DNA from: Allosphingosinicella sp.
GTDB taxonomy: Bacteria > Pseudomonadota > Alphaproteobacteria > Sphingomonadales > Sphingomonadaceae
Assembly: GCA_036388065.1 (NCBI GenBank)
Contig: DASVSP010000061.1
Span: 7,703-71,702, forward strand
Direction: 5' to 3'
Length of the DNA stretch: 64,000 nucleotides
A program made the position numbers and the translations under genes. A model generated the notes under the pieces. The model worked only from the letters and a program-made list of their open reading frames with translations. It was not told the DNA's origin and made no database searches. Below, in pieces: positions 27,464-37,229 of this stretch (the first letter of the stretch is position 1; every line of letters starts with the position of its first letter).

Positions 27464-28177
27464 TCAGCGGTCGCGGTCGCGCTTGCTGCGCTCCACGGCA
27501 TAGCCATCCACGTGGGTTTCGCGGACCGGCACTCCTATTGCATGCAGGCGGTTCCGGATCACGGCCCGATCGGGTTCCGCCATTCTTGCGCCGAGATAGA
27601 CGGATGAGACGGCAGCGTTGTCGTAGCGGACCCTGCCGCTTCGCTCCGCGAACAGTCGCCATTCCCGCTCGTACGACCATCTCAGGCTCTTGGTGGAGAG
27701 AATGGAACGCGGCCGCTCGTCGCGCTCCAGATCGGCAGTGATCAGGTGGTAGGGCTTGTCCCCGTAGGCAATGCGCGAAAGCGCACAGCTTTCCGGCAGC
27801 CCTTCCAGCAGCCTTGTGAAAGAGTAGCTGATGCAGATGCCGCGGAAGCTGTCCGCGTAATGGGCCCACATCAATTCATTGCTCCACGACTCGCACAAGG
27901 AGGCGATTCCGAGCCTGACCTTCTGGCGTCGGATCGACTCCACCAGGTCCTCATAGTCCGGTCGCCGGGCCAGCCGGGTGCTTGCCCGGTAGAAACCCTC
28001 CATCGGATCATTCATTCGGGTGAATATCGGACAATAAATATATCTGTTTTCGATCGCGTCCAATTCGCGGTCGAGCAGTTTCGGATTCACTCGGGCCTCG
28101 TCGCCGATGGTAGTGCTGCCCAAGCTGCGATAACGGTAGAGACGCCCGGGTCTGGCATAAGTCTCGATGGTCGCCAT
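27464..28177 (-). CDS. DUF2971 domain protein
   Basis: MNDPME, LMWAHYADSFRGICI, KSLRWSYEREWR. Confidence 0.85.
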   Translation of the reverse strand: MATIETYARPGRLYRYRSLGSTTIGDEARVNPKLLDRELDAIENRYIYCPIFTRMNDPMEGFYRASTRLARRPDYEDLVESIRRQKVRLGIASLCESWSNELMWAHYADSFRGICISYSFTRLLEGLPESCALSRIAYGDKPYHLITADLERDERPRSILSTKSLRWSYEREWRLFAERSGRVRYDNAAVSSVYLGARMAEPDRAVIRNRLHAIGVPVRETHVDGYAVERSKRDRDR

Positions 28178-28524
28178 ATTACCTCTGAGCCGCGGGCGCT
28201 CGGTCCTCATAGCAGAAAGAGAGGCGCCGCGCGCGCCCCTTGGGCGCGCCGGGCGGAGCCGGTCGCGCTTTGGTTCGAGACCGGCCGCACGAAAGCTTGC
28301 GGGCGCCTTTCCCGAGCTCGAGGACGCGTTGTGCGCGATGACTTATTCGGGATTCGAAGGCGCCTCCGATTCGCGCGACCGGGCCGACGGGATGGTCTGG
28401 GGATGACCGCGCTGTTCTAGCCGAGGGCCGAGCCTAGGATCAGGCGGCTTCGAGGCTTTGCGAAAAACGGTGCCAGGCACCGATGTCTAAAGCGTTGATT
28501 TTGCTGGGCGGGGCGGGGCTGTCT

Positions 28525-28866: not shown

Positions 28867-29268
28867 TTAGCCCTGCTCGCTGAAGCCGGAATATCGGATG
28901 GTGAGCTCATCCCCCTCGGCGATGTCGCGGCGTGCGACGAAGCAGAGATCGGCGGTGCTTTCGACATTGGCCTCGGCGCCGGGCGCCGGCTCGTTCAGGT
29001 ACCAGCCCGGGGTGAGATTGTGGAAATTGGCCGGACAGCCGATCCGGTCGCCTCGGTGGATCCCGAAATCGTGATAGAAAGCGCGTTGGGCCGAAGTGAG
29101 GTTCGAGCGGTCCAGCTCGGCCTTGCTCACCCAGACGAGCGGCACCAGATCGTTGGCGAAGATGTCGGTCCCCGCAGGGATCGCGCGGATCGCGAACACT
29201 CCGATTCCGTGCACCGCCGACAGGCCGAGCCGGACATAGACTTGCTCATGGGGCAGCTTGGCGGTCAT
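28867..29268 (-). CDS. SET domain protein
   Basis: SAVHGIGVFA, YLNEP...ANV, ARRDIAEGDELTIRY. Confidence 0.85.
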   Translation of the reverse strand: MTAKLPHEQVYVRLGLSAVHGIGVFAIRAIPAGTDIFANDLVPLVWVSKAELDRSNLTSAQRAFYHDFGIHRGDRIGCPANFHNLTPGWYLNEPAPGAEANVESTADLCFVARRDIAEGDELTIRYSGFSEQG

Positions 29269-29322
29269 CTGCTCTCCCGGGGGCAAGCCGGACCGGCCGA
29301 GCGCCCGCAAACGGCAATGGGC

Positions 29323-31007: not shown

Positions 31008-32834
31008 TCAGGCCGAGTCGCCGGCCGCGAGCGCCTGGTCCCGAAGCTCTCCACGCTCCGCAGCGCGCTTCTGGCGGCGCCACATCGCGGCGTAGAGGCC
31101 GCCGCGGGCAAGCAGCTCATGATGGCGGCCCCGCTCCGCGACTTCGCCGCCGGCGAGCACGAGTATCTCGTCCGAATCGACGATCGTCGAGAGGCGGTGG
31201 GCGATGACGAGCACCGTTCGTTCGGCGGAGATGGAGTGGAGGCTCTCCTGGATCTCCCGCTCGGTCTGGCTGTCGAGGGCGCTGGTCGCCTCGTCGAAGA
31301 CGAGGATCGCGGGATCCTTCAGGACGACCCGGGCGATCGCCACCCGCTGCTTCTCGCCTCCCGACAGCTTCAGCCCGCGCTCGCCCACTCTCGTCTCGTA
31401 ACCGTCGGGAAGCGTGAGGATGAAGTCGTGGATGCTGGCGGCCCGAGCCGCGGCTTCGATCTCCCGGGCCGTCGCGCCCGGGCGGGCGTAGCCGATATTG
31501 TAGCCGATCGTGTCGTTGAACAGGACCGTGTCCTGCGGCACCATTCCGATCGCCCGGCGAAGGCTCTTCTGCGACACCTCGCGCAGATCCTGGCCGTCGA
31601 TGCGTATGGCGCCGCCCCGGACGTCGTAAAAGCGGAACAGGAGGCGCGCGAGCGTGGACTTGCCGCCGCCGCTATGGCCGACGATCGCCACCGTCTTCCC
31701 GGCCGGAACGTCGAACGACACATCTTTCAGGATGGGCCGGCGCGGATCGTAGGCGAAAGTGACGGCGTCGAACGAGACTTCGCCGCCGGTGACCACCAGG
31801 TCGGGTGAGCCCGGCGCATCCGTCACGTCCGGCTGCACCTCGAGCAGCTGGACCAACGACTCGACGTCGGTGATCGATTGCCTCGTTCCGCTGTAGCTCG
31901 ACGCGAGCATTCCGAGCGGCACGTAGAGCTGGAGCAGATAGGCGTTGACCAGAACGAAATCGCCGACCGTCATCGTGCCGGCGGCGACCTCGCGGCCGGC
32001 CATGACCATGACCGCGATCATCCCGGCGGCGATGATCGCCGCCTGGCCGGCGGCGGACAGAGCCTCGACCCTTTCGGCGCGGACCGCGGCCTCCTCGTAG
32101 GCGCGCTTGGCCTGCTCGTAACGTTGCGCTTCGTTCGCCTCGGCGCCGAAATATTTCACCGTCTCATAGTTGAGAATGCTGTCGACGGCGATCGAGATCG
32201 CCGCCACGTCGCACGTGTTGCGGTAGCGCCTTGCGCGGATCTGCCGGCCTGTTGCGGCGATGGTCAGGCCGGCATAGCAAAGCACGGTGGCAAGCACCGC
32301 GACCGCGAAGTCCGCGCTGTAGAAGCCCCACAGGATGGCCGAGACCAGCACCAGCTCCAGAAACGTCGGAACGACGTTGAACAGCATGAGCTCGAGCAGA
32401 AACTCGATTCCGGAGACTCCGCGGTCCACGACCCGGGCGAGGCCGCCGGTCTGCCGATCGAGGTGGACTCGGAGCGACAGCGAATGGATGTGGTTGAACA
32501 TCTGGAGCGCGGTCGACCGGATCGCGCGCTGGGCCACCCTGATGAAGACCAGGCTTCGAACCGCCTCGACCAGCTGCCCGCCGACCTGGGCCACCCCGTA
32601 AGCGAGGATCAGGGCGATCGGGATCGCGGCGAGCGCCGGACCGGACAGTGAGTCGATGATCTGCTTGTAGAGAAAGGGCGCCGCGACCGCGACCAGCTTG
32701 GCCGCGAAGATCAGCGCGACCGAGACGACGACTCGCACCTTCATGCCCGCCTCGCCGCTCGGCCACATCAGCGCCAGCAACTGGCTCAGCGCCCACCGGG
32801 CGGGCGATTGGGGGATGGATTTCGGGTCGTTCAT
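31008..32834 (-). CDS. ABC transporter ATP-binding/permease (ATM1-like half transporter, no C39 peptidase domain)
   Basis: TM domain plus GHSGGGKST, LSGGEKQR, DEATSALD; divergent from the precursor array. Confidence 0.93.
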   Translation of the reverse strand: MNDPKSIPQSPARWALSQLLALMWPSGEAGMKVRVVVSVALIFAAKLVAVAAPFLYKQIIDSLSGPALAAIPIALILAYGVAQVGGQLVEAVRSLVFIRVAQRAIRSTALQMFNHIHSLSLRVHLDRQTGGLARVVDRGVSGIEFLLELMLFNVVPTFLELVLVSAILWGFYSADFAVAVLATVLCYAGLTIAATGRQIRARRYRNTCDVAAISIAVDSILNYETVKYFGAEANEAQRYEQAKRAYEEAAVRAERVEALSAAGQAAIIAAGMIAVMVMAGREVAAGTMTVGDFVLVNAYLLQLYVPLGMLASSYSGTRQSITDVESLVQLLEVQPDVTDAPGSPDLVVTGGEVSFDAVTFAYDPRRPILKDVSFDVPAGKTVAIVGHSGGGKSTLARLLFRFYDVRGGAIRIDGQDLREVSQKSLRRAIGMVPQDTVLFNDTIGYNIGYARPGATAREIEAAARAASIHDFILTLPDGYETRVGERGLKLSGGEKQRVAIARVVLKDPAILVFDEATSALDSQTEREIQESLHSISAERTVLVIAHRLSTIVDSDEILVLAGGEVAERGRHHELLARGGLYAAMWRRQKRAAERGELRDQALAAGDSA

Positions 32835-33059: not shown

Positions 33060-33221
33060 ATGGAAAGAAAGACCTTTGCGTTTAAGCTGGCGGACAAGGC
33101 CGCGAACAGGACGTCGAAATGGAAGGCGCGCGACGGAGTCTCCATTGCGGGATGCAGCGAGCGTTCCGAAGGGGATTATCGCGATTACGTCAGAGGGGGT
33201 GATAACGGCTACCATTGCTAA
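33060..33221 (+). CDS. RiPP precursor peptide A1 (53 aa)
   Basis: MERKTFAFKLADKAANRTSKWKARDGVSIAG-CSERSEGDYRDYVRGGDNGYHC*; AGGAG RBS. Confidence 0.93.
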   Translation: MERKTFAFKLADKAANRTSKWKARDGVSIAGCSERSEGDYRDYVRGGDNGYHC

Positions 33222-33326
33222 CAGGTAGCTTGAGAGCTCCGACGGAAGTCGGACTCCCCCTCCGGGCGAGTCGAAGGGCGGATTTGATCCAATGCGGATG
33301 AAACTGCCACAGCAGGAGAAGTAGAG

Positions 33327-33491
33327 ATGGAAAAGAAGACCTTTGCGTTCAAGCTGGCCGACAGGGCCGCGAACGGCGCCTCCAAATGGAGGACTCGCGA
33401 CGGCGTTGCTGTCGCCGGATGCACCGACGTCACCGGAGACGGAGATTTGCGCTACAAGCTCAGGCTGGGTGACAACGGAGAGTATTGCTAG
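33327..33491 (+). CDS. RiPP precursor peptide A2 (54 aa)
   Basis: MEKKTFAFKLADRAANGASKWRTRDGVAVAG-CTDVTGDGDLRYKLRLGDNGEYC*; AGGAG RBS. Confidence 0.93.
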   Translation: MEKKTFAFKLADRAANGASKWRTRDGVAVAGCTDVTGDGDLRYKLRLGDNGEYC

Positions 33492-33596
33492 CAGCAGAAC
33501 GTCCTGGAGCCCTCGACTAAAAATCGGGGGCTCCTCGGGTGTCCTTGTCACCCGATCACGTACGAACCGCATAATTTATTGAGCCCGGAGGATAAG

Positions 33597-33758
33597 ATGC
33601 AAAAGAAGACCTTTGCTTTCAAATTGGCCGACAAAAACGCGAACGCCGTTTCCAAATGGAGTGCGCGCGACGGAGTTCCGCTCGCGGGCTGCACTGAAGT
33701 CAGGCTTGGCAATTATCGCGAGTCGAGCAGGTTCGGAGACAACGGCGTTTATTGCTAG
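33597..33758 (+). CDS. RiPP precursor peptide A3 (53 aa)
   Basis: MQKKTFAFKLADKNANAVSKWSARDGVPLAG-CTEVRLGNYRESSRFGDNGVYC*; GGAGG RBS. Confidence 0.93.
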   Translation: MQKKTFAFKLADKNANAVSKWSARDGVPLAGCTEVRLGNYRESSRFGDNGVYC

Positions 33759-33852
33759 ACTCTACTGACCCCGGAGCGACGCTGGCACTGTAGCTGTCCA
33801 ATGAGCCGCAGCAGCTAATGTCGCTCCGATTTACAAACCGTGGAGAATTAAA

Positions 33853-34014
33853 ATGGAAAAGAAGACTTTTGCATTCAAGCTGTCCGACAAGGCCGCCAGG
33901 GGCGCTTCCAAATGGACGGCCCGCGACGGAATCTCGCTCGCCGGCTGCAGCAACGTCGGCGACTACAATTATCGCGCTAGCCGCTTAAGAGGCGACGACG
34001 GGATATATTGCTAG
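33853..34014 (+). CDS. RiPP precursor peptide A4 (53 aa)
   Basis: MEKKTFAFKLSDKAARGASKWTARDGISLAG-CSNVGDYNYRASRLRGDDGIYC*; GGAG RBS. Confidence 0.93.
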   Translation: MEKKTFAFKLSDKAARGASKWTARDGISLAGCSNVGDYNYRASRLRGDDGIYC

Positions 34015-34135
34015 GATCGCTACGTCGCGGAGTCTCCGGCTCAGGCCGGGGGCTCCTTGGCCCGGTCGACCCCGAGACGGTGCGGTCGGTTACCGAAATC
34101 TGACCGAACTCTGAAAAGAATGGCCAGCAAAGGAG

Positions 34136-34285
34136 ATGGAAATGAGGACTTTTGCCTTCAAGCTCGCCGGCAAGACAGCCGGAACCGATTCCAAATGGAT
34201 GGCGCGCGACGGCGTTTCTCTCGCCGCCTGCACTTATGTCGGCGACGGTCAGTATCGTTGGAGAGACAACGGCTACTATTGCTGA
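34136..34285 (+). CDS. RiPP precursor peptide A5 (49 aa; 47 aa if started at ATG 34142, which has better RBS spacing)
   Basis: MEMRTFAFKLAGKTAGTDSKWMARDGVSLAA-CTYVGDGQYRWRDNGYYC*. Confidence 0.92.
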   Translation: MEMRTFAFKLAGKTAGTDSKWMARDGVSLAACTYVGDGQYRWRDNGYYC

Positions 34286-34298
34286 CGGCGGAGCGCAG

Positions 34299-35300
34299 GT
34301 GTCAAAGCGCGTTCTGATCGTCACCAACAGCGACGATCTTCACGCCGACCTGGTGGCGGCCCGGATCGAGTCCGAGGGCGGGGCCGCCTTTCGGCTCGAT
34401 CTCGACGAATATCCCGCCGGCTTCGAAATCGGCTTCGGCTTTTCCGGCGGCCGCTGGGACGGCTCGCTCGTCCGGACGGCGGGCGGGGAGTCGCTCGCGT
34501 TGCAGGACGTCGGAGCGGTCTGGATGCGCAAGCGCGCGTCCTTCCGCTACCGTTCCGACGGCATGGGCGCGCACGAGAAGGCGCATGCCGACGCCGAAAC
34601 CGACCACATGCTGCTGGGCATTCTTCGGTCGCTCGATTGCCGGTGGATGAGCCATCCCGACGCCGTGCGCGGATCGCACTGGAAGCCCGAGCAGCTTCGG
34701 CGCGCGGCGCGAATGGGCTTTGCCGTTCCGGAATCGCTGATGACCAATATCCGTGCGGAAGTGGACCGGTTTTCCGCCACGGCCGAACATGGCATCGTCT
34801 TCAAGCTGCTCTCCTCGATGCTCGACGCGGCCGACTCGGTCGGTCCGCAGGAAGAGCTGGCGCGGGGGGTCCCGACCACCCTGATCGGCCCGGAGCATGA
34901 GGATATGCTCGATTCGGTGGCGGAGCTGCCCTGCTTCTTCCAGCATTATGTTCCAAAGCGCCACGAGCTTCGGGTGACGGTCATCGGCGGATCCGTGTAC
35001 GCCGCCCGGATCCATTCGCAGGACGATCCTCGGACGACGACGGACTGGCGCGACATGTCGGCGGAGATCCGCTACGAGGCCGAGACCCTTCCACCCGAAG
35101 TGGCGAGGCGCTGCCTCGACTTCGTCCACAGCTACGGCCTGACCTTCGGCGCCATCGACCTCGTCGTGACTCCGTCCGGCGACCACGTTTTCCTGGAAAA
35201 CAACCCCGTCGGCCAGTTCCTCTTCGTCGAGCAGCTGGTTCCCGAGCTGGACATGACCGGGGCCGTCGCCCGGTGGCTCGTCGACTCCGCCCGTTCGTGA
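34299..35300 (+). CDS. MvdC/MvdD-family ATP-grasp ligase (graspetide synthetase)
   Basis: GTG start after GGAG, 13 nt after A5; VLIVTNSDDLHAD, KPEQL..A...G..VP...MTN, FQHYVPKRHELRVTVIG, DWR, FGAIDL, FLENNPVGQF. Confidence 0.9.
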   Translation: MSKRVLIVTNSDDLHADLVAARIESEGGAAFRLDLDEYPAGFEIGFGFSGGRWDGSLVRTAGGESLALQDVGAVWMRKRASFRYRSDGMGAHEKAHADAETDHMLLGILRSLDCRWMSHPDAVRGSHWKPEQLRRAARMGFAVPESLMTNIRAEVDRFSATAEHGIVFKLLSSMLDAADSVGPQEELARGVPTTLIGPEHEDMLDSVAELPCFFQHYVPKRHELRVTVIGGSVYAARIHSQDDPRTTTDWRDMSAEIRYEAETLPPEVARRCLDFVHSYGLTFGAIDLVVTPSGDHVFLENNPVGQFLFVEQLVPELDMTGAVARWLVDSARS

Positions 35301-35311
35301 CTCGAGGCCGA

Positions 35312-36184
35312 ATGAACCTTCACCACCACATCGTCGATATCGAACGCCGGCGGCGCAGCCGGCTTCTCGTTTTCGCGGCTTCGAACCTGGAGACGGATCT
35401 GCTTCCCGCACTGTACGACACGTTGCGGGAAATCGGACGCACCGAGCGTCTCGACGTCCTGCTCCACTGCCACGGCGGCGAAGTGACCGCGGCGAGGGCC
35501 ATCGCCCTGCTTCTCCACCAGTTCACCGACCATCTCGCCTTCATCGTCCCGGAGCGGTGCACCTCCTCGGGAACGATCCTCGCGCTCTCGGGCCACGAGA
35601 TCGTCGCCGGGCCGGCCGCTTTGTTCTCGCCGGTCGATCCCCTGCTGCAGGGTCCCACGTCCGGGGCGGACGATCCGCTCGGGTCGATTTCGGCACAGGA
35701 CGTGCGGCTGTTCGGAGTCATGAGCCGGGATTGGTTCGGTCTTCCCGAGGGCGAAGCCGGGCCCAAAGCTCTCTCGGTTCTGTGCGACAACGTCTTCCCG
35801 ACGACCCTGACCTCTTTCTACCGCTCCACGCTCGAGGTCGAGGCCGTCTGCCTCGAATTGCTTTCGCTGCACATGGGCGCAGGCTCGGCGGCGGAGAAAA
35901 AGACGATCGTCGACAGCCTCCTCTACGGCCATCATTCGCACGGCTTCGCGCTGATGCGCGGCGACCTGGCCGCCCTCGGGCTGCCGCTCCGGGGCGACCC
36001 GGAAACCGAAGACATTGCGTGGGAAGTGGCGCGGACGGTCCGCCAGTCCGTCGGGGGCAGCTCGCGGCGGGCAGCGGAGGACGACTGGACCGACGTTCTG
36101 CTCGCGACCCGCTCGGCTTCCCGTCGCCGGCGGCGAAGCCGGGAGGGCATCGGTCCGGCCTGGGAAAGCGGCGAGATCGAATGA
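35312..36184 (+). CDS. SDH-family (ClpP/S49-fold) serine proteinase; alternative start GTG 35297 overlapping the ligase stop
   Basis: DVLLHCHGG, VPERCTSSGTILAL, SPVDP, SHGFAL.R.DL..LGL. Confidence 0.82.
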   Translation: MNLHHHIVDIERRRRSRLLVFAASNLETDLLPALYDTLREIGRTERLDVLLHCHGGEVTAARAIALLLHQFTDHLAFIVPERCTSSGTILALSGHEIVAGPAALFSPVDPLLQGPTSGADDPLGSISAQDVRLFGVMSRDWFGLPEGEAGPKALSVLCDNVFPTTLTSFYRSTLEVEAVCLELLSLHMGAGSAAEKKTIVDSLLYGHHSHGFALMRGDLAALGLPLRGDPETEDIAWEVARTVRQSVGGSSRRAAEDDWTDVLLATRSASRRRRRSREGIGPAWESGEIE

Positions 36185-36687
36185 CGAGCCTGGCCGCGTT
36201 TTCGGGCGAGGCGTGCCGGCTCTACGTGATGGTCGCCCTTGCCGCCGCCGTTGCCGGCAAGTCGATGGCGATCGACGATTTCAGGGACACGCTTCTCGAC
36301 CTGCCGGGACTGTCGCCGCGCAATTCCGGTGCCGCGGCGCTTGCGGTGATCGGCAGCGAGGCCGTGATCCTGGGCTGGGCGGCGGTCGCGCCGCGGACCG
36401 GAATGGTCGCGGCCCTGGCGGCCTTCGCGCTGATGTCGAGCGCGATCCTTGCCGCCCTTCTCACGGGCCGGCCGCTGATGTGCAATTGCTTCGGGGGACG
36501 GGCACGGCCGGTCTCCTGGCTGGACCTGGTCCGCAACCTGGCGCTGATCGGCGCCTGCGCGTCCTTCCTTCTGGCGCCGCCCTTGGGCGCGCCCGGCCTT
36601 GCAGGATGGCTGCTGCTCCTCGGCCTGGCGTTCATCGCCTTCCTGGTTTCGGCCAACCTCGACGAGATCGCGGCGCCGGCCCGCTGA
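36181..36687 (+). CDS. MauE/DoxX-family redox membrane protein
   Basis: ATGA overlap with protease stop; 4-5 TM; CNCFG motif then VSWLDLVRN. Confidence 0.87.
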   Translation: MTSLAAFSGEACRLYVMVALAAAVAGKSMAIDDFRDTLLDLPGLSPRNSGAAALAVIGSEAVILGWAAVAPRTGMVAALAAFALMSSAILAALLTGRPLMCNCFGGRARPVSWLDLVRNLALIGACASFLLAPPLGAPGLAGWLLLLGLAFIAFLVSANLDEIAAPAR

Positions 36688-37229
36688 TGGACTCCGATCT
36701 CATCGTCCTCGTGCTCGTCGTGGTGACGTTCGCAGCCGCGTTCAACCTGTGGCTGACCTTTCGCCTCTCCGCTCGAATCCGGGAGATGACGGCGCCCGCC
36801 TTCACCGTCACCCTCGGTGATCCGGTACCTTCGTTCGAGGGCACGGCGTCGGCCGGGAGCCGGGCGATCCGGTCCTCGGATCTCGCCGGGCAGCCGGCGG
36901 TGCTGGTGTTCCTCTCGGCCGGGTGCAGCACCTGCGCGGGGCACATCCCGGAGCTGGCCGCGATCCTGGACGGAGCGGGGCGGCTCGGTGTGAGCCTCTG
37001 GATCGTTCCGGCCGACGACGTCCACGACATCGCCCGCCTCGTCGGCGGAACGCCGCTGGCGGAGCGCGTGCTGGTCCTCGAACCGGCTCACCGCCTTCGC
37101 CTCAATCCGATGAGATCGGCGCCCTTCTACCTGTTCATCGACGAGAATTCGGTCGCCCGGGCGAGCAACAATCTCGGCGACGAGGATTGGACAACGTTCG
37201 TCGAGCAGATGTTGGAAGGGGCTGGATAG
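36687..37229 (+). CDS. MauD-like membrane-anchored thioredoxin (CxxC)
   Basis: TGATG overlap; N-terminal TM; GDPVPSF, LVFLSAGCSTC, APFYLFID. Confidence 0.85.
   Translation: MDSDLIVLVLVVVTFAAAFNLWLTFRLSARIREMTAPAFTVTLGDPVPSFEGTASAGSRAIRSSDLAGQPAVLVFLSAGCSTCAGHIPELAAILDGAGRLGVSLWIVPADDVHDIARLVGGTPLAERVLVLEPAHRLRLNPMRSAPFYLFIDENSVARASNNLGDEDWTTFVEQMLEGAG

What the first reader, a model, noticed from the sequence alone, without database searches (positions are those of the whole stretch)
33060..34285. Five tandem precursor genes invisible to the ORF track: conserved 31-aa leader plus variable Cys-bounded core
Seen by hand translation: all five contain TFAFKL-x8-SKW-x-[AT]RDG[VI]-x-[ILV]A[GA] followed by Cys32, and each has its own RBS. 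A1 and A2 share the identical upstream AGGAGAAGTAGAGATGGAAA, a sign of duplication. Cores: CSERSEGDYRDYVRGGDNGYHC; CTDVTGDGDLRYKLRLGDNGEYC; CTEVRLGNYRESSRFGDNGVYC; CSNVGDYNYRASRLRGDDGIYC; CTYVGDGQYRWRDNGYYC. The FAFKL motif is reminiscent of the aromatic PFFARFL ligase-binding motif of microviridin leaders (inference).
Basis: seen in the sequence. Interest (0 to 1): 0.92.

Follow-up and report, generated by a model that had tools for sequence, protein, structure and literature searches.

The report
Disulfide-stapled graspetide peptide cluster
Five small genes encode precursors of a catalogued but unstudied family of ring-shaped bacterial peptides, and the neighbouring genes suggest each is likely closed by one ester bond plus one disulfide bond, a combination I found in no paper I could read.

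Summary
Five ATG-started genes of 49-54 aa, each with a ribosome-binding site, are under purifying selection (dN/dS 0.28 against orthologues). They lie directly upstream of a graspetide-type ATP-grasp ligase.

The family is already catalogued as a prediction: Makarova 2022 cluster 281 and Carter 2026 RODEO group 9. Carter's table lists A1 and A2 letter for letter. I found no characterised member.

The ligase is followed by a Clp-fold serine protease, MauE and a thioredoxin; a peptidase-less ABC exporter lies upstream on the other strand. The protease is present in 51 of 51 and MauE/thioredoxin in 49 of 51 clade loci with enough flank, against 0 of 12 outside the clade. Cores read C-[S/T]...D-x4-C in 87 of 91 locus precursors. 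Actinobacterial relatives keep the cassette, with 2- or 6-Cys cores.

Likely product: a stem-loop peptide with one Ser/Thr2-Asp ester and a terminal Cys-Cys disulfide, displaying a variable loop. No chemistry or expression is shown. Rare variants with Cys at the donor position hint at a natural thioester. The scan's index showed no earlier finding of this.

The parts
31008..32834 (-). ABC exporter, Atm1/HMT1-like, with no C39 peptidase domain; divergently transcribed; likely exports the peptides
   Evidence: Pfam ABC_membrane + ABC_tran only; best PDB hit is an ATM1-type exporter, 562 bits; same position in L001, L003, L005, L006 (62-92% range of identity to window genes, 67-92% for this one)
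33060..33221 (+). Precursor A1 (53 aa); 22-aa core, predicted donor Ser2 and acceptor Asp17
   Evidence: listed letter for letter as a group 9 precursor in PMC13097080 supplement file 2, row 4928; no orthologue among L001's four (core identity 50% or less)
33327..33491 (+). Precursor A2 (54 aa); 23-aa core, predicted Thr2/Asp18
   Evidence: row 4929 of the same table; orthologous core 83% identical in L001
33597..33758 (+). Precursor A3 (53 aa); 22-aa core, predicted Thr2/Asp17
   Evidence: core 100% identical in L001
33853..34014 (+). Precursor A4 (53 aa); 22-aa core, predicted Ser2/Asp17
   Evidence: orthologous core 82% identical in L001
34136..34285 (+). Precursor A5 (49 aa from 34136; probably 47 aa from the ATG at 34142); 18-aa core, predicted Thr2/Asp13
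34299..35300 (+). ATP-grasp ligase of the graspetide-synthetase type (333 aa, GTG start)
   Evidence: PF21068 60 bits, cut-off 27; TIGR04187 229.5 bits, below its cut-off of 350; CdnC 7MGV 218 bits; K129, K169, Q215, R225, D249, R251, D287, E300, N302 invariant in 10
35312..36184 (+). SDH-type ClpP/SppA-fold serine protease (290 aa); candidate leader peptidase
   Evidence: PF01972 42.7 bits, cut-off 31.3; G55-G56, S85, D109, H208, H210 invariant in 10, with H208 replaced in L045/L064; model pLDDT 82 matches SppA and ClpP folds
36181..36687 (+). MauE-family membrane protein with a CNC-FG site; predicted DsbB-like oxidase; start overlaps the protease stop
   Evidence: PF07291 61.9 bits; C-x-C-F-G in 55 of 55 cassette MauE hits; sequence
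36687..37229 (+). Membrane-anchored thioredoxin-fold protein (CSTC), MauD-like; start overlaps the MauE stop
   Evidence: AhpC-TSA 33.6 bits; CxxC in 48 of 52 hits, four missed a strict pattern and were not inspected; fused to MauE in L010 and L132

Best explanation
The five genes are precursors in a conserved graspetide gene cluster, and each core is predicted to become a two-ring stem-loop peptide, closed by one Ser/Thr-Asp ester and one Cys-Cys disulfide. Steps: (1) the ATP-grasp ligase likely binds the FAFKL/W-x-x-R-D-G leader, phosphorylates the Asp six residues from the end and joins it to Ser/Thr2 (inferred from the family's chemistry and from conservation). (2) The Clp-fold serine protease likely cuts at A-G|Cys (inferred; the weakest step). 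(3) The MauE/thioredoxin pair likely oxidises Cys1 and the last Cys to a disulfide (inferred; the side of the membrane is unresolved). (4) The peptidase-less ABC transporter likely exports the product. The constant stem displays a 10-15-residue loop (10-25 in the family) that nearly always carries an Arg. Duplication gave five loops, each then held by purifying selection, so they are probably a panel aimed at different targets. My best guess for the targets is trypsin-like proteases, by analogy with other graspetides (about 35%).
For: Shown. (a) The gene order ligase-protease-MauE-thioredoxin, with overlapping stop/start codons. (b) Protease in 51 of 51 and MauE and thioredoxin in 49 of 51 clade loci with at least 2 kb downstream, against 0 of 12 outgroup loci; a precursor in 61 of 62 clade loci against 0 of 22. 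The clade has SH-aLRT 98 on a quick tree. (c) C-[S/T]...D-x4-C-stop in 87 of 91 anchored locus precursors and 103 of 118 anchored representatives; exactly two Cys in 90 of 91; Ser/Thr2 and Asp(-6) are the only near-invariant donor and acceptor. (d) Actinobacterial members with a different leader keep the cassette and have either the same C-[S/T]...D-x4-C core (L010, L132) or 6-Cys cores starting C-T (L133, L134), all even Cys counts. (e) Active-site residues are intact in the ligase, protease, MauE and thioredoxin. (f) None of five exporters scanned has a C39 domain. From papers: Makarova 2022 predicted a single ester for cluster 281; MauE replaces DsbB through its CXC site (bioRxiv 10.64898/2026.03.05.709764); MauE/MauD beside Cys-rich RiPP precursors was proposed as a modifier (PMC7794033); a related ligase tolerates loops of 0-72 aa in a stem-loop (PMC12291112).
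Against: No product, transcript or binding is shown. L045 and L064, two near-identical loci, keep a 2-Cys precursor but lack MauE and thioredoxin within about 6 kb, so the pair is not strictly required. In bufferins the related DoxX gene was dispensable (PMC11626156). Four of 91 and 15 of 118 precursors break the pattern, and some lack the Asp or the last Cys. The profile that found the precursors included the cores, so the pattern counts are inflated. Loci were fetched through the ligase and many are close kin, so the counts are not independent events. Carter 2026 suggests the group 9 proteinase may serve self-resistance. The cores hold further Ser/Thr/Asp/Glu residues, so extra rings are possible.
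Confidence: 0.6

Rival explanations
1. Same ester and disulfide, but the Clp-fold protease is a self-resistance or decoy target, or a peptide-degrading immunity protein, and a housekeeping protease removes the leader.
For: Carter 2026 floats self-resistance for group 9's serine proteinase. A passage search of a review of RiPP leader proteases found no ClpP, S49 or SppA mention (PMC10885120). The fold matches SppA, a peptide-degrading enzyme.
Against: The protease is the most constant partner (51 of 51) and no other peptidase was seen: the exporters lack C39. The site before Cys1 is strongly conserved (Ala 91 of 91, Gly 84 of 91), as a dedicated cut site would be.
Confidence: 0.15
2. The ligase uses Cys1 as the nucleophile and makes a thioester to Asp. 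Leader removal then exposes an N-terminal Cys that rearranges to a lactam (S-to-N shift), and MauE/thioredoxin keep the thiols reduced instead of oxidising them.
For: Cys1 sits exactly at the predicted cut. Ester-forming ligases accept Cys donors, and an engineered thioester rearranges this way (PMC12291112 passages). The MauE preprint cites a report of MauE as a possible reductase.
Against: It leaves the near-invariant Ser/Thr2 and the terminal Cys unexplained. Cys counts are even in nearly all cores. MauE was shown to be oxidising in two assays.
Confidence: 0.1
3. The peptides are thiol-based metal or redox buffers (bufferin-like), with the two Cys held close by the ester to bind copper or another soft metal.
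For: The window's exporter is Atm1-type, whose best PDB match is named a heavy-metal exporter. Bufferin clusters pair Cys-rich RiPPs with a DoxX protein.
Against: The Atm1-type exporter is confined to one subclade; other loci use exporters only 32-41% identical. No metal-resistance or MNIO gene was seen among the neighbours scanned. Five divergent, individually conserved loops fit target recognition better than chelation.
Confidence: 0.1
4. The array is a decaying set of duplicates and most copies are not made.
For: No expression data were obtained.
Against: Intact frames, ribosome-binding sites, dN/dS 0.19-0.35 against orthologues, and intact enzymes.
Confidence: 0.03

Closest known systems
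Graspetide precursor cluster 281 (Makarova et al. 2022, PMC8939145)
   Same: Its consensus LFAFKLA...WKxRDGVAVAGCT...R...DxGxYC matches all five; 48 cluster281 hits in supplement file 1; a single ester was predicted.
   Different: Prediction only. The paper suggests that conserved Cys in new precursors serve radical-SAM thioethers. Its main text has no MauE, thioredoxin, disulfide or ClpP.
RODEO graspetide group 9 (Carter et al. 2026, PMC13097080)
   Same: A1 and A2 are listed letter for letter; 144 FAFKL occurrences in the held part of the table; a serine proteinase is noted in over half of group 9.
   Different: Group 9 is a mixed ligase-similarity group that includes Cys-free cores. A3-A5 did not come up under that genus in the held, cut file. 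The main text has no 'disulfide' or 'Cys'. Table S4 on co-occurrence could not be read.
Stem-loop graspetides: fuscimiditide, amycolimiditide, OEP6-1
   Same: Nested cross-links forming a stem with a tolerant loop, made by one ATP-grasp ligase (PMC12291112 passages).
   Different: Those stems are made of ligase-installed cross-links (two to four), with an aspartimide in the loop of the first two. Here only one donor/acceptor pair is conserved, and the outer link is predicted to be a disulfide.
Microviridins/chryseoviridin (group 1)
   Same: Same ligase class (best PDB hits CdnC 7MGV, 5IG9, 5IG8) and an aromatic leader motif.
   Different: One ligase, not two; no PFFARFL; no microviridin core (TxKYPSD, recalled); the three ligase models all score below their cut-offs.
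MauE/MauD disulfide pathway, and MauE-linked candidate RiPPs (Kloosterman 2020, PMC7794033)
   Same: MauE with CXC-FG followed by an anchored CxxC thioredoxin, next to Cys-containing small substrates.
   Different: The substrate here is a graspetide precursor with two Cys, not methylamine dehydrogenase or a precursor with 8 or more Cys. The passages seen do not tie MauE to a graspetide ligase.

Membership tests
Graspetides (ATP-grasp RiPPs) | Adjacent ATP-grasp ligase of the graspetide-synthetase type | tested here: met
   PF21068 over cut-off; PDB hits are all graspetide-type ligases; TIGR04187/04184/04185 match but below their cut-offs
Graspetides (ATP-grasp RiPPs) | Intact ATP-binding and D-F-R-type residues | tested here: met
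   K129, K169, Q215, R225, D249-W-R251, D287, E300, N302 invariant in 10; the DFR motif is named in PMC13097080; the roles of the other residues are recalled
Graspetides (ATP-grasp RiPPs) | Precursor with a conserved leader and a core holding a donor (Ser/Thr/Lys) and an acceptor (Asp/Glu) | tested here: met
Graspetides (ATP-grasp RiPPs) | Side-chain ester or amide actually installed by the ligase | not testable with these tools
   needs co-expression and mass spectrometry
Makarova cluster 281 / RODEO group 9 | Match to the cluster consensus; listing in the group | tested here: met
Microviridins (group 1) | PFFARFL leader, microviridin core, two paralogous ligases | tested here: not met
   sequences; one ligase in the genome as assembled, 89% complete; core motif recalled
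PCAT / double-glycine-processed RiPPs | C39 peptidase domain on the ABC exporter | tested here: not met
   no C39 hit in 5 of 5 exporters scanned; no C39-like motif in 16 of 16
Radical-SAM thioether RiPPs (Makarova's suggestion for conserved Cys) | Radical SAM/SPASM enzyme in the cluster | tested here: not met
   none among the window genes scanned between 27.4 and 38.7 kb; other loci were not scanned for it
MauE/MauD disulfide-forming pair | MauE CXC-F-G site plus partner thioredoxin CxxC | tested here: met
   55 of 55 and 48 of 52; site defined
MauE/MauD disulfide-forming pair | Active sites facing the periplasm | tested here: inconclusive
   Lys/Arg bias points to the cytoplasm (0.1 before against 3.1 after the anchor, n=38), but five canonical MauD show the same pattern (0 against 2)
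MauE/MauD disulfide-forming pair | Oxidase activity on the substrate | not testable with these tools
   bench test

The most novel reading that the evidence does not exclude
This ligase clade is a hybrid RiPP pathway with its own disulfide-forming machine and a Clp-fold leader peptidase. In the rare precursors that carry Cys at the donor position it makes a natural thioester graspetide, a linkage Carter 2026 still calls non-native. The clearest case is L065, whose core has three Cys and no Ser, Thr or Lys; P0054 and P0088 are similar. The charge bias further allows that the MauE/thioredoxin pair works on the cytoplasmic face, oxidising the peptide before export.
Probability: 0.2. Interest if true: 0.7.

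Novelty: new variant of a known kind. Interest (0 to 1): 0.4.

Why it matters
As catalogued genes these are ordinary: the family has been in genome-mining tables since 2022, and two of the five are listed. The value lies in the mechanism. If right, the cluster would give (a) a graspetide stapled by an enzyme-made disulfide, (b) a Clp/SppA-fold leader peptidase, a type not mentioned in the leader-protease review I searched, and (c) a natural scaffold of constant stem and free 10-25-residue loop, useful for cyclic-peptide display. One ligase with five natural substrates makes this a cheap locus for testing all three. The Cys-donor variants make the question of natural thioester graspetides directly testable.

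Tried and rejected

Folding the precursor alone gave a low-confidence coil (pLDDT 64, pTM 0.19): no information.

RNA runs: no RNA holder was listed; this is no evidence either way.

Sigma-70 promoter scan: 0 sites; terminators at chance level.

Membrane topology by charge bias did not separate the cassette proteins from canonical MauE/MauD.

No plasmid match for MauE. No PDB sequence match for the protease.

Precursor profile over 400 other genomes of the phylum: 0 matches. Protease profile: 3 of 301 genomes in L010's family and 2 of 401 in its class, each count including L010's own genome. The system is rare in those searched.

Not done: an independent test that precursor homologues always lie beside a ligase. 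Loci were fetched through the ligase or the protease, and the 130 representatives have no context.

Rejected: microviridin membership, PCAT processing, radical-SAM thioether for this locus, artefact.

Papers not held: Ramesh 2021 and the Choi and Link review. Lee 2020 was not looked up. Carter's SI PDF and zip were unreadable, and both large supplement tables were cut. Any of these may already record the MauE link or a characterised group 9 member.

The scan's own index gave nothing relevant.

Full report
Observation. The five ORFs are at 33060-33221, 33327-33491, 33597-33758, 33853-34014 and 34136-34285 on the + strand. Each has an ATG and a GGAG-type site upstream, and the motif, Cys32 and cores are as written. 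A profile of the five scores 101-115 bits on them and 10 or less elsewhere in the genome. The array is about 56% G+C against 67% for the genome. A5 probably starts at the second ATG (34142), 6 nt after its AGGAG. The genes are merely short: they appear at a 30-aa cut-off, and all five exact sequences are in the public collection. None matches Pfam or NCBIfam.

They are real genes. The nearest relative (L001, an Allosphingosinicella assembly) has four precursors, orthologous to A2-A5, with core identity 82-100% on the diagonal. Between orthologues dN/dS is 0.35 for leaders and 0.19 for cores; the ligase control gives 0.17. Between the window's paralogues it is 0.22 for leaders and 0.65 for cores (simple counting on 85-310 codons). 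So the cores diverged after duplication, and each has since been conserved. Five is the highest copy number among 50 clade loci with at least 1.6 kb upstream: 28 have one, 8 two, 9 three, 3 four, and one has none by the profile.

Surroundings. Thirteen bases after A5 begins an ATP-grasp ligase of the graspetide type. It is followed by an SDH-type Clp-fold serine protease, MauE, and an anchored thioredoxin; the last three are coupled by overlapping stop and start codons. An Atm1-like ABC exporter without a peptidase domain is transcribed divergently upstream. I fetched 12 genome loci and 80 metagenome loci through the ligase. Of these plus the window, 68 fall in the ligase's clade by score and 25 outside. 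Of 51 clade loci with at least 2 kb downstream, 51 have the protease and 49 have MauE and thioredoxin; 0 of 12 outgroup loci have any. Of 62 clade loci with at least 400 nt upstream, 61 have a precursor hit; 0 of 22 outgroup loci do. A quick tree of 83 ligases puts the cassette-bearing ones in one clade (SH-aLRT 98, no bootstrap, midpoint root; short and identical rows dropped). Many loci are close kin, so these are not independent events. The two exceptions, L045 and L064, keep a 2-Cys precursor and the protease but lack MauE, thioredoxin and a nearby exporter.

The core. Anchored on the leader Trp, 87 of 91 locus precursors (95 found, 4 unanchored) and 103 of 118 representatives (130 found, 12 unanchored) read C-[S/T]...D-x4-C-stop; 90 of 91 have exactly two Cys. 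The loop between varies in length and sequence but holds an Arg in 86 of 87, preceded by Y/F/W/L/V/M/H in 77. The search profile included the cores, so these counts lean towards the pattern. Independent support comes from four actinobacterial loci, found through the ligase or the protease, whose leaders differ. L010 and L132 have the same C-[S/T]...D-x4-C core and a MauE-thioredoxin fusion. L133 and L134 have 6-Cys cores beginning C-T, with separate MauE and thioredoxin genes. The candidate precursors of outgroup ligases do not show the pattern. The donor position is Thr or Ser in 113 of 118 representatives. It is Cys in P0054, P0088, P0121 and in L065, whose core has no Ser, Thr or Lys. L065 is one short contig, and a single base separates that codon from Ser. 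P0121 has four Cys and could form two disulfides.

Mechanism, all inferred. The ligase makes the Ser/Thr2-Asp(-6) ester, the only conserved donor-acceptor pair, as Makarova also predicted. The protease cuts at A-G|C, since no exporter scanned has a C39 domain. MauE and the thioredoxin oxidise Cys1 and the last Cys, since MauE replaces DsbB through its CXC site and both sites are intact here. The ABC transporter exports. The result would be a nested two-link stem with a displayed loop, like fuscimiditide with one ester replaced by a disulfide. The order of steps and the side of the membrane are open: the charge bias points to the cytoplasm, but canonical MauE/MauD loci show the same bias. The biological role is the least certain step; inhibition of trypsin-like proteases through the loop Arg is my best guess, by analogy only. 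Rivals are scored in their own section.

What is known. Makarova 2022 (PMC8939145; I read section 5, parts 1-2 of section 6, section 7, passage searches and supplement hits) defines this family as new cluster 281. Carter 2026 (PMC13097080; first two of six parts, passages, supplement file 1 and parts of the cut file 2) places it in group 9, lists A1 and A2 exactly, notes a serine proteinase in over half of the group, and calls thioesters non-native. Kloosterman 2020 (PMC7794033, passages) proposed MauE/MauD as modifiers of Cys-rich RiPP precursors. I also read the first half of the MauE preprint and passages of PMC12291112, PMC9576775, PMC10885120 and PMC11626156. Searches for graspetide, alone and with group 9, group 21 or disulfide, for MauE with RiPP, and for ATP-grasp with precursor peptide and MauE showed no characterised member and no description of this cassette; most hits were seen only as listings. 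Ramesh 2021, Lee 2020, the Choi and Link review and Carter's Table S4 were not seen and could reduce the novelty.

Verdict. The feature is real and correctly read as ATP-grasp RiPP precursors, but it is already catalogued as a prediction, so 0.92 is too high. The predicted ester-plus-disulfide chemistry, with dedicated redox and protease genes, sets it apart from the characterised graspetides I could check and is cheap to test. New variant of a known kind; interest 0.4.

Noticed in passing
L065:1385-1575; P0054, P0088, P0121: Precursors with Cys in place of Ser/Thr at the donor position; the L065 core has no Ser/Thr/Lys, making it a candidate natural thioester graspetide.
   Followed up: partly
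L133 (upstream of 7855, - strand); L134 (upstream of 7835, - strand): Actinobacterial clusters with the same ligase, protease, MauE and thioredoxin but 6-Cys cores ending C-D-Y-G; candidates for three disulfides plus an ester.
   Followed up: partly
L010:9597-10601; L132:8265-9371: Natural MauE-thioredoxin fusions, which place both active sites on one side of the membrane.
   Followed up: partly
L098-L103: Canonical mauE-mauD-mauA loci show the same positive-charge bias after the MauD anchor and around the MauE CXC loop, which by the positive-inside rule would face the cytoplasm, unlike the periplasmic topology predicted in the MauE preprint.
   Followed up: no
L045:5500-7900; L064:5500-7900: Reduced clusters (precursor, ligase, protease only), inserted beside his genes by the look of the flanking frames; the protease has lost the first His of the H-S-H motif.
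   Followed up: partly
window 31008-32834: The exporter is an Atm1 paralogue, 51% identical to another Atm1-like gene of the genome; other subclades use exporters only 32-41% identical to it, often placed downstream, which suggests replacement.
   Followed up: partly
window 33222-33326, 33492-33596, 33759-33852, 34015-34135: Each spacer between precursors folds into hairpins (-36 to -49 kcal/mol; no shuffle control run), possibly tuning transcript stability or ligase-to-precursor ratio.
   Followed up: no
window 28867-29310 (-) and 27464-28210 (-): A stand-alone SET-domain gene and a DUF2971 gene lie a few kb upstream; they are not part of the cassette.
   Followed up: no
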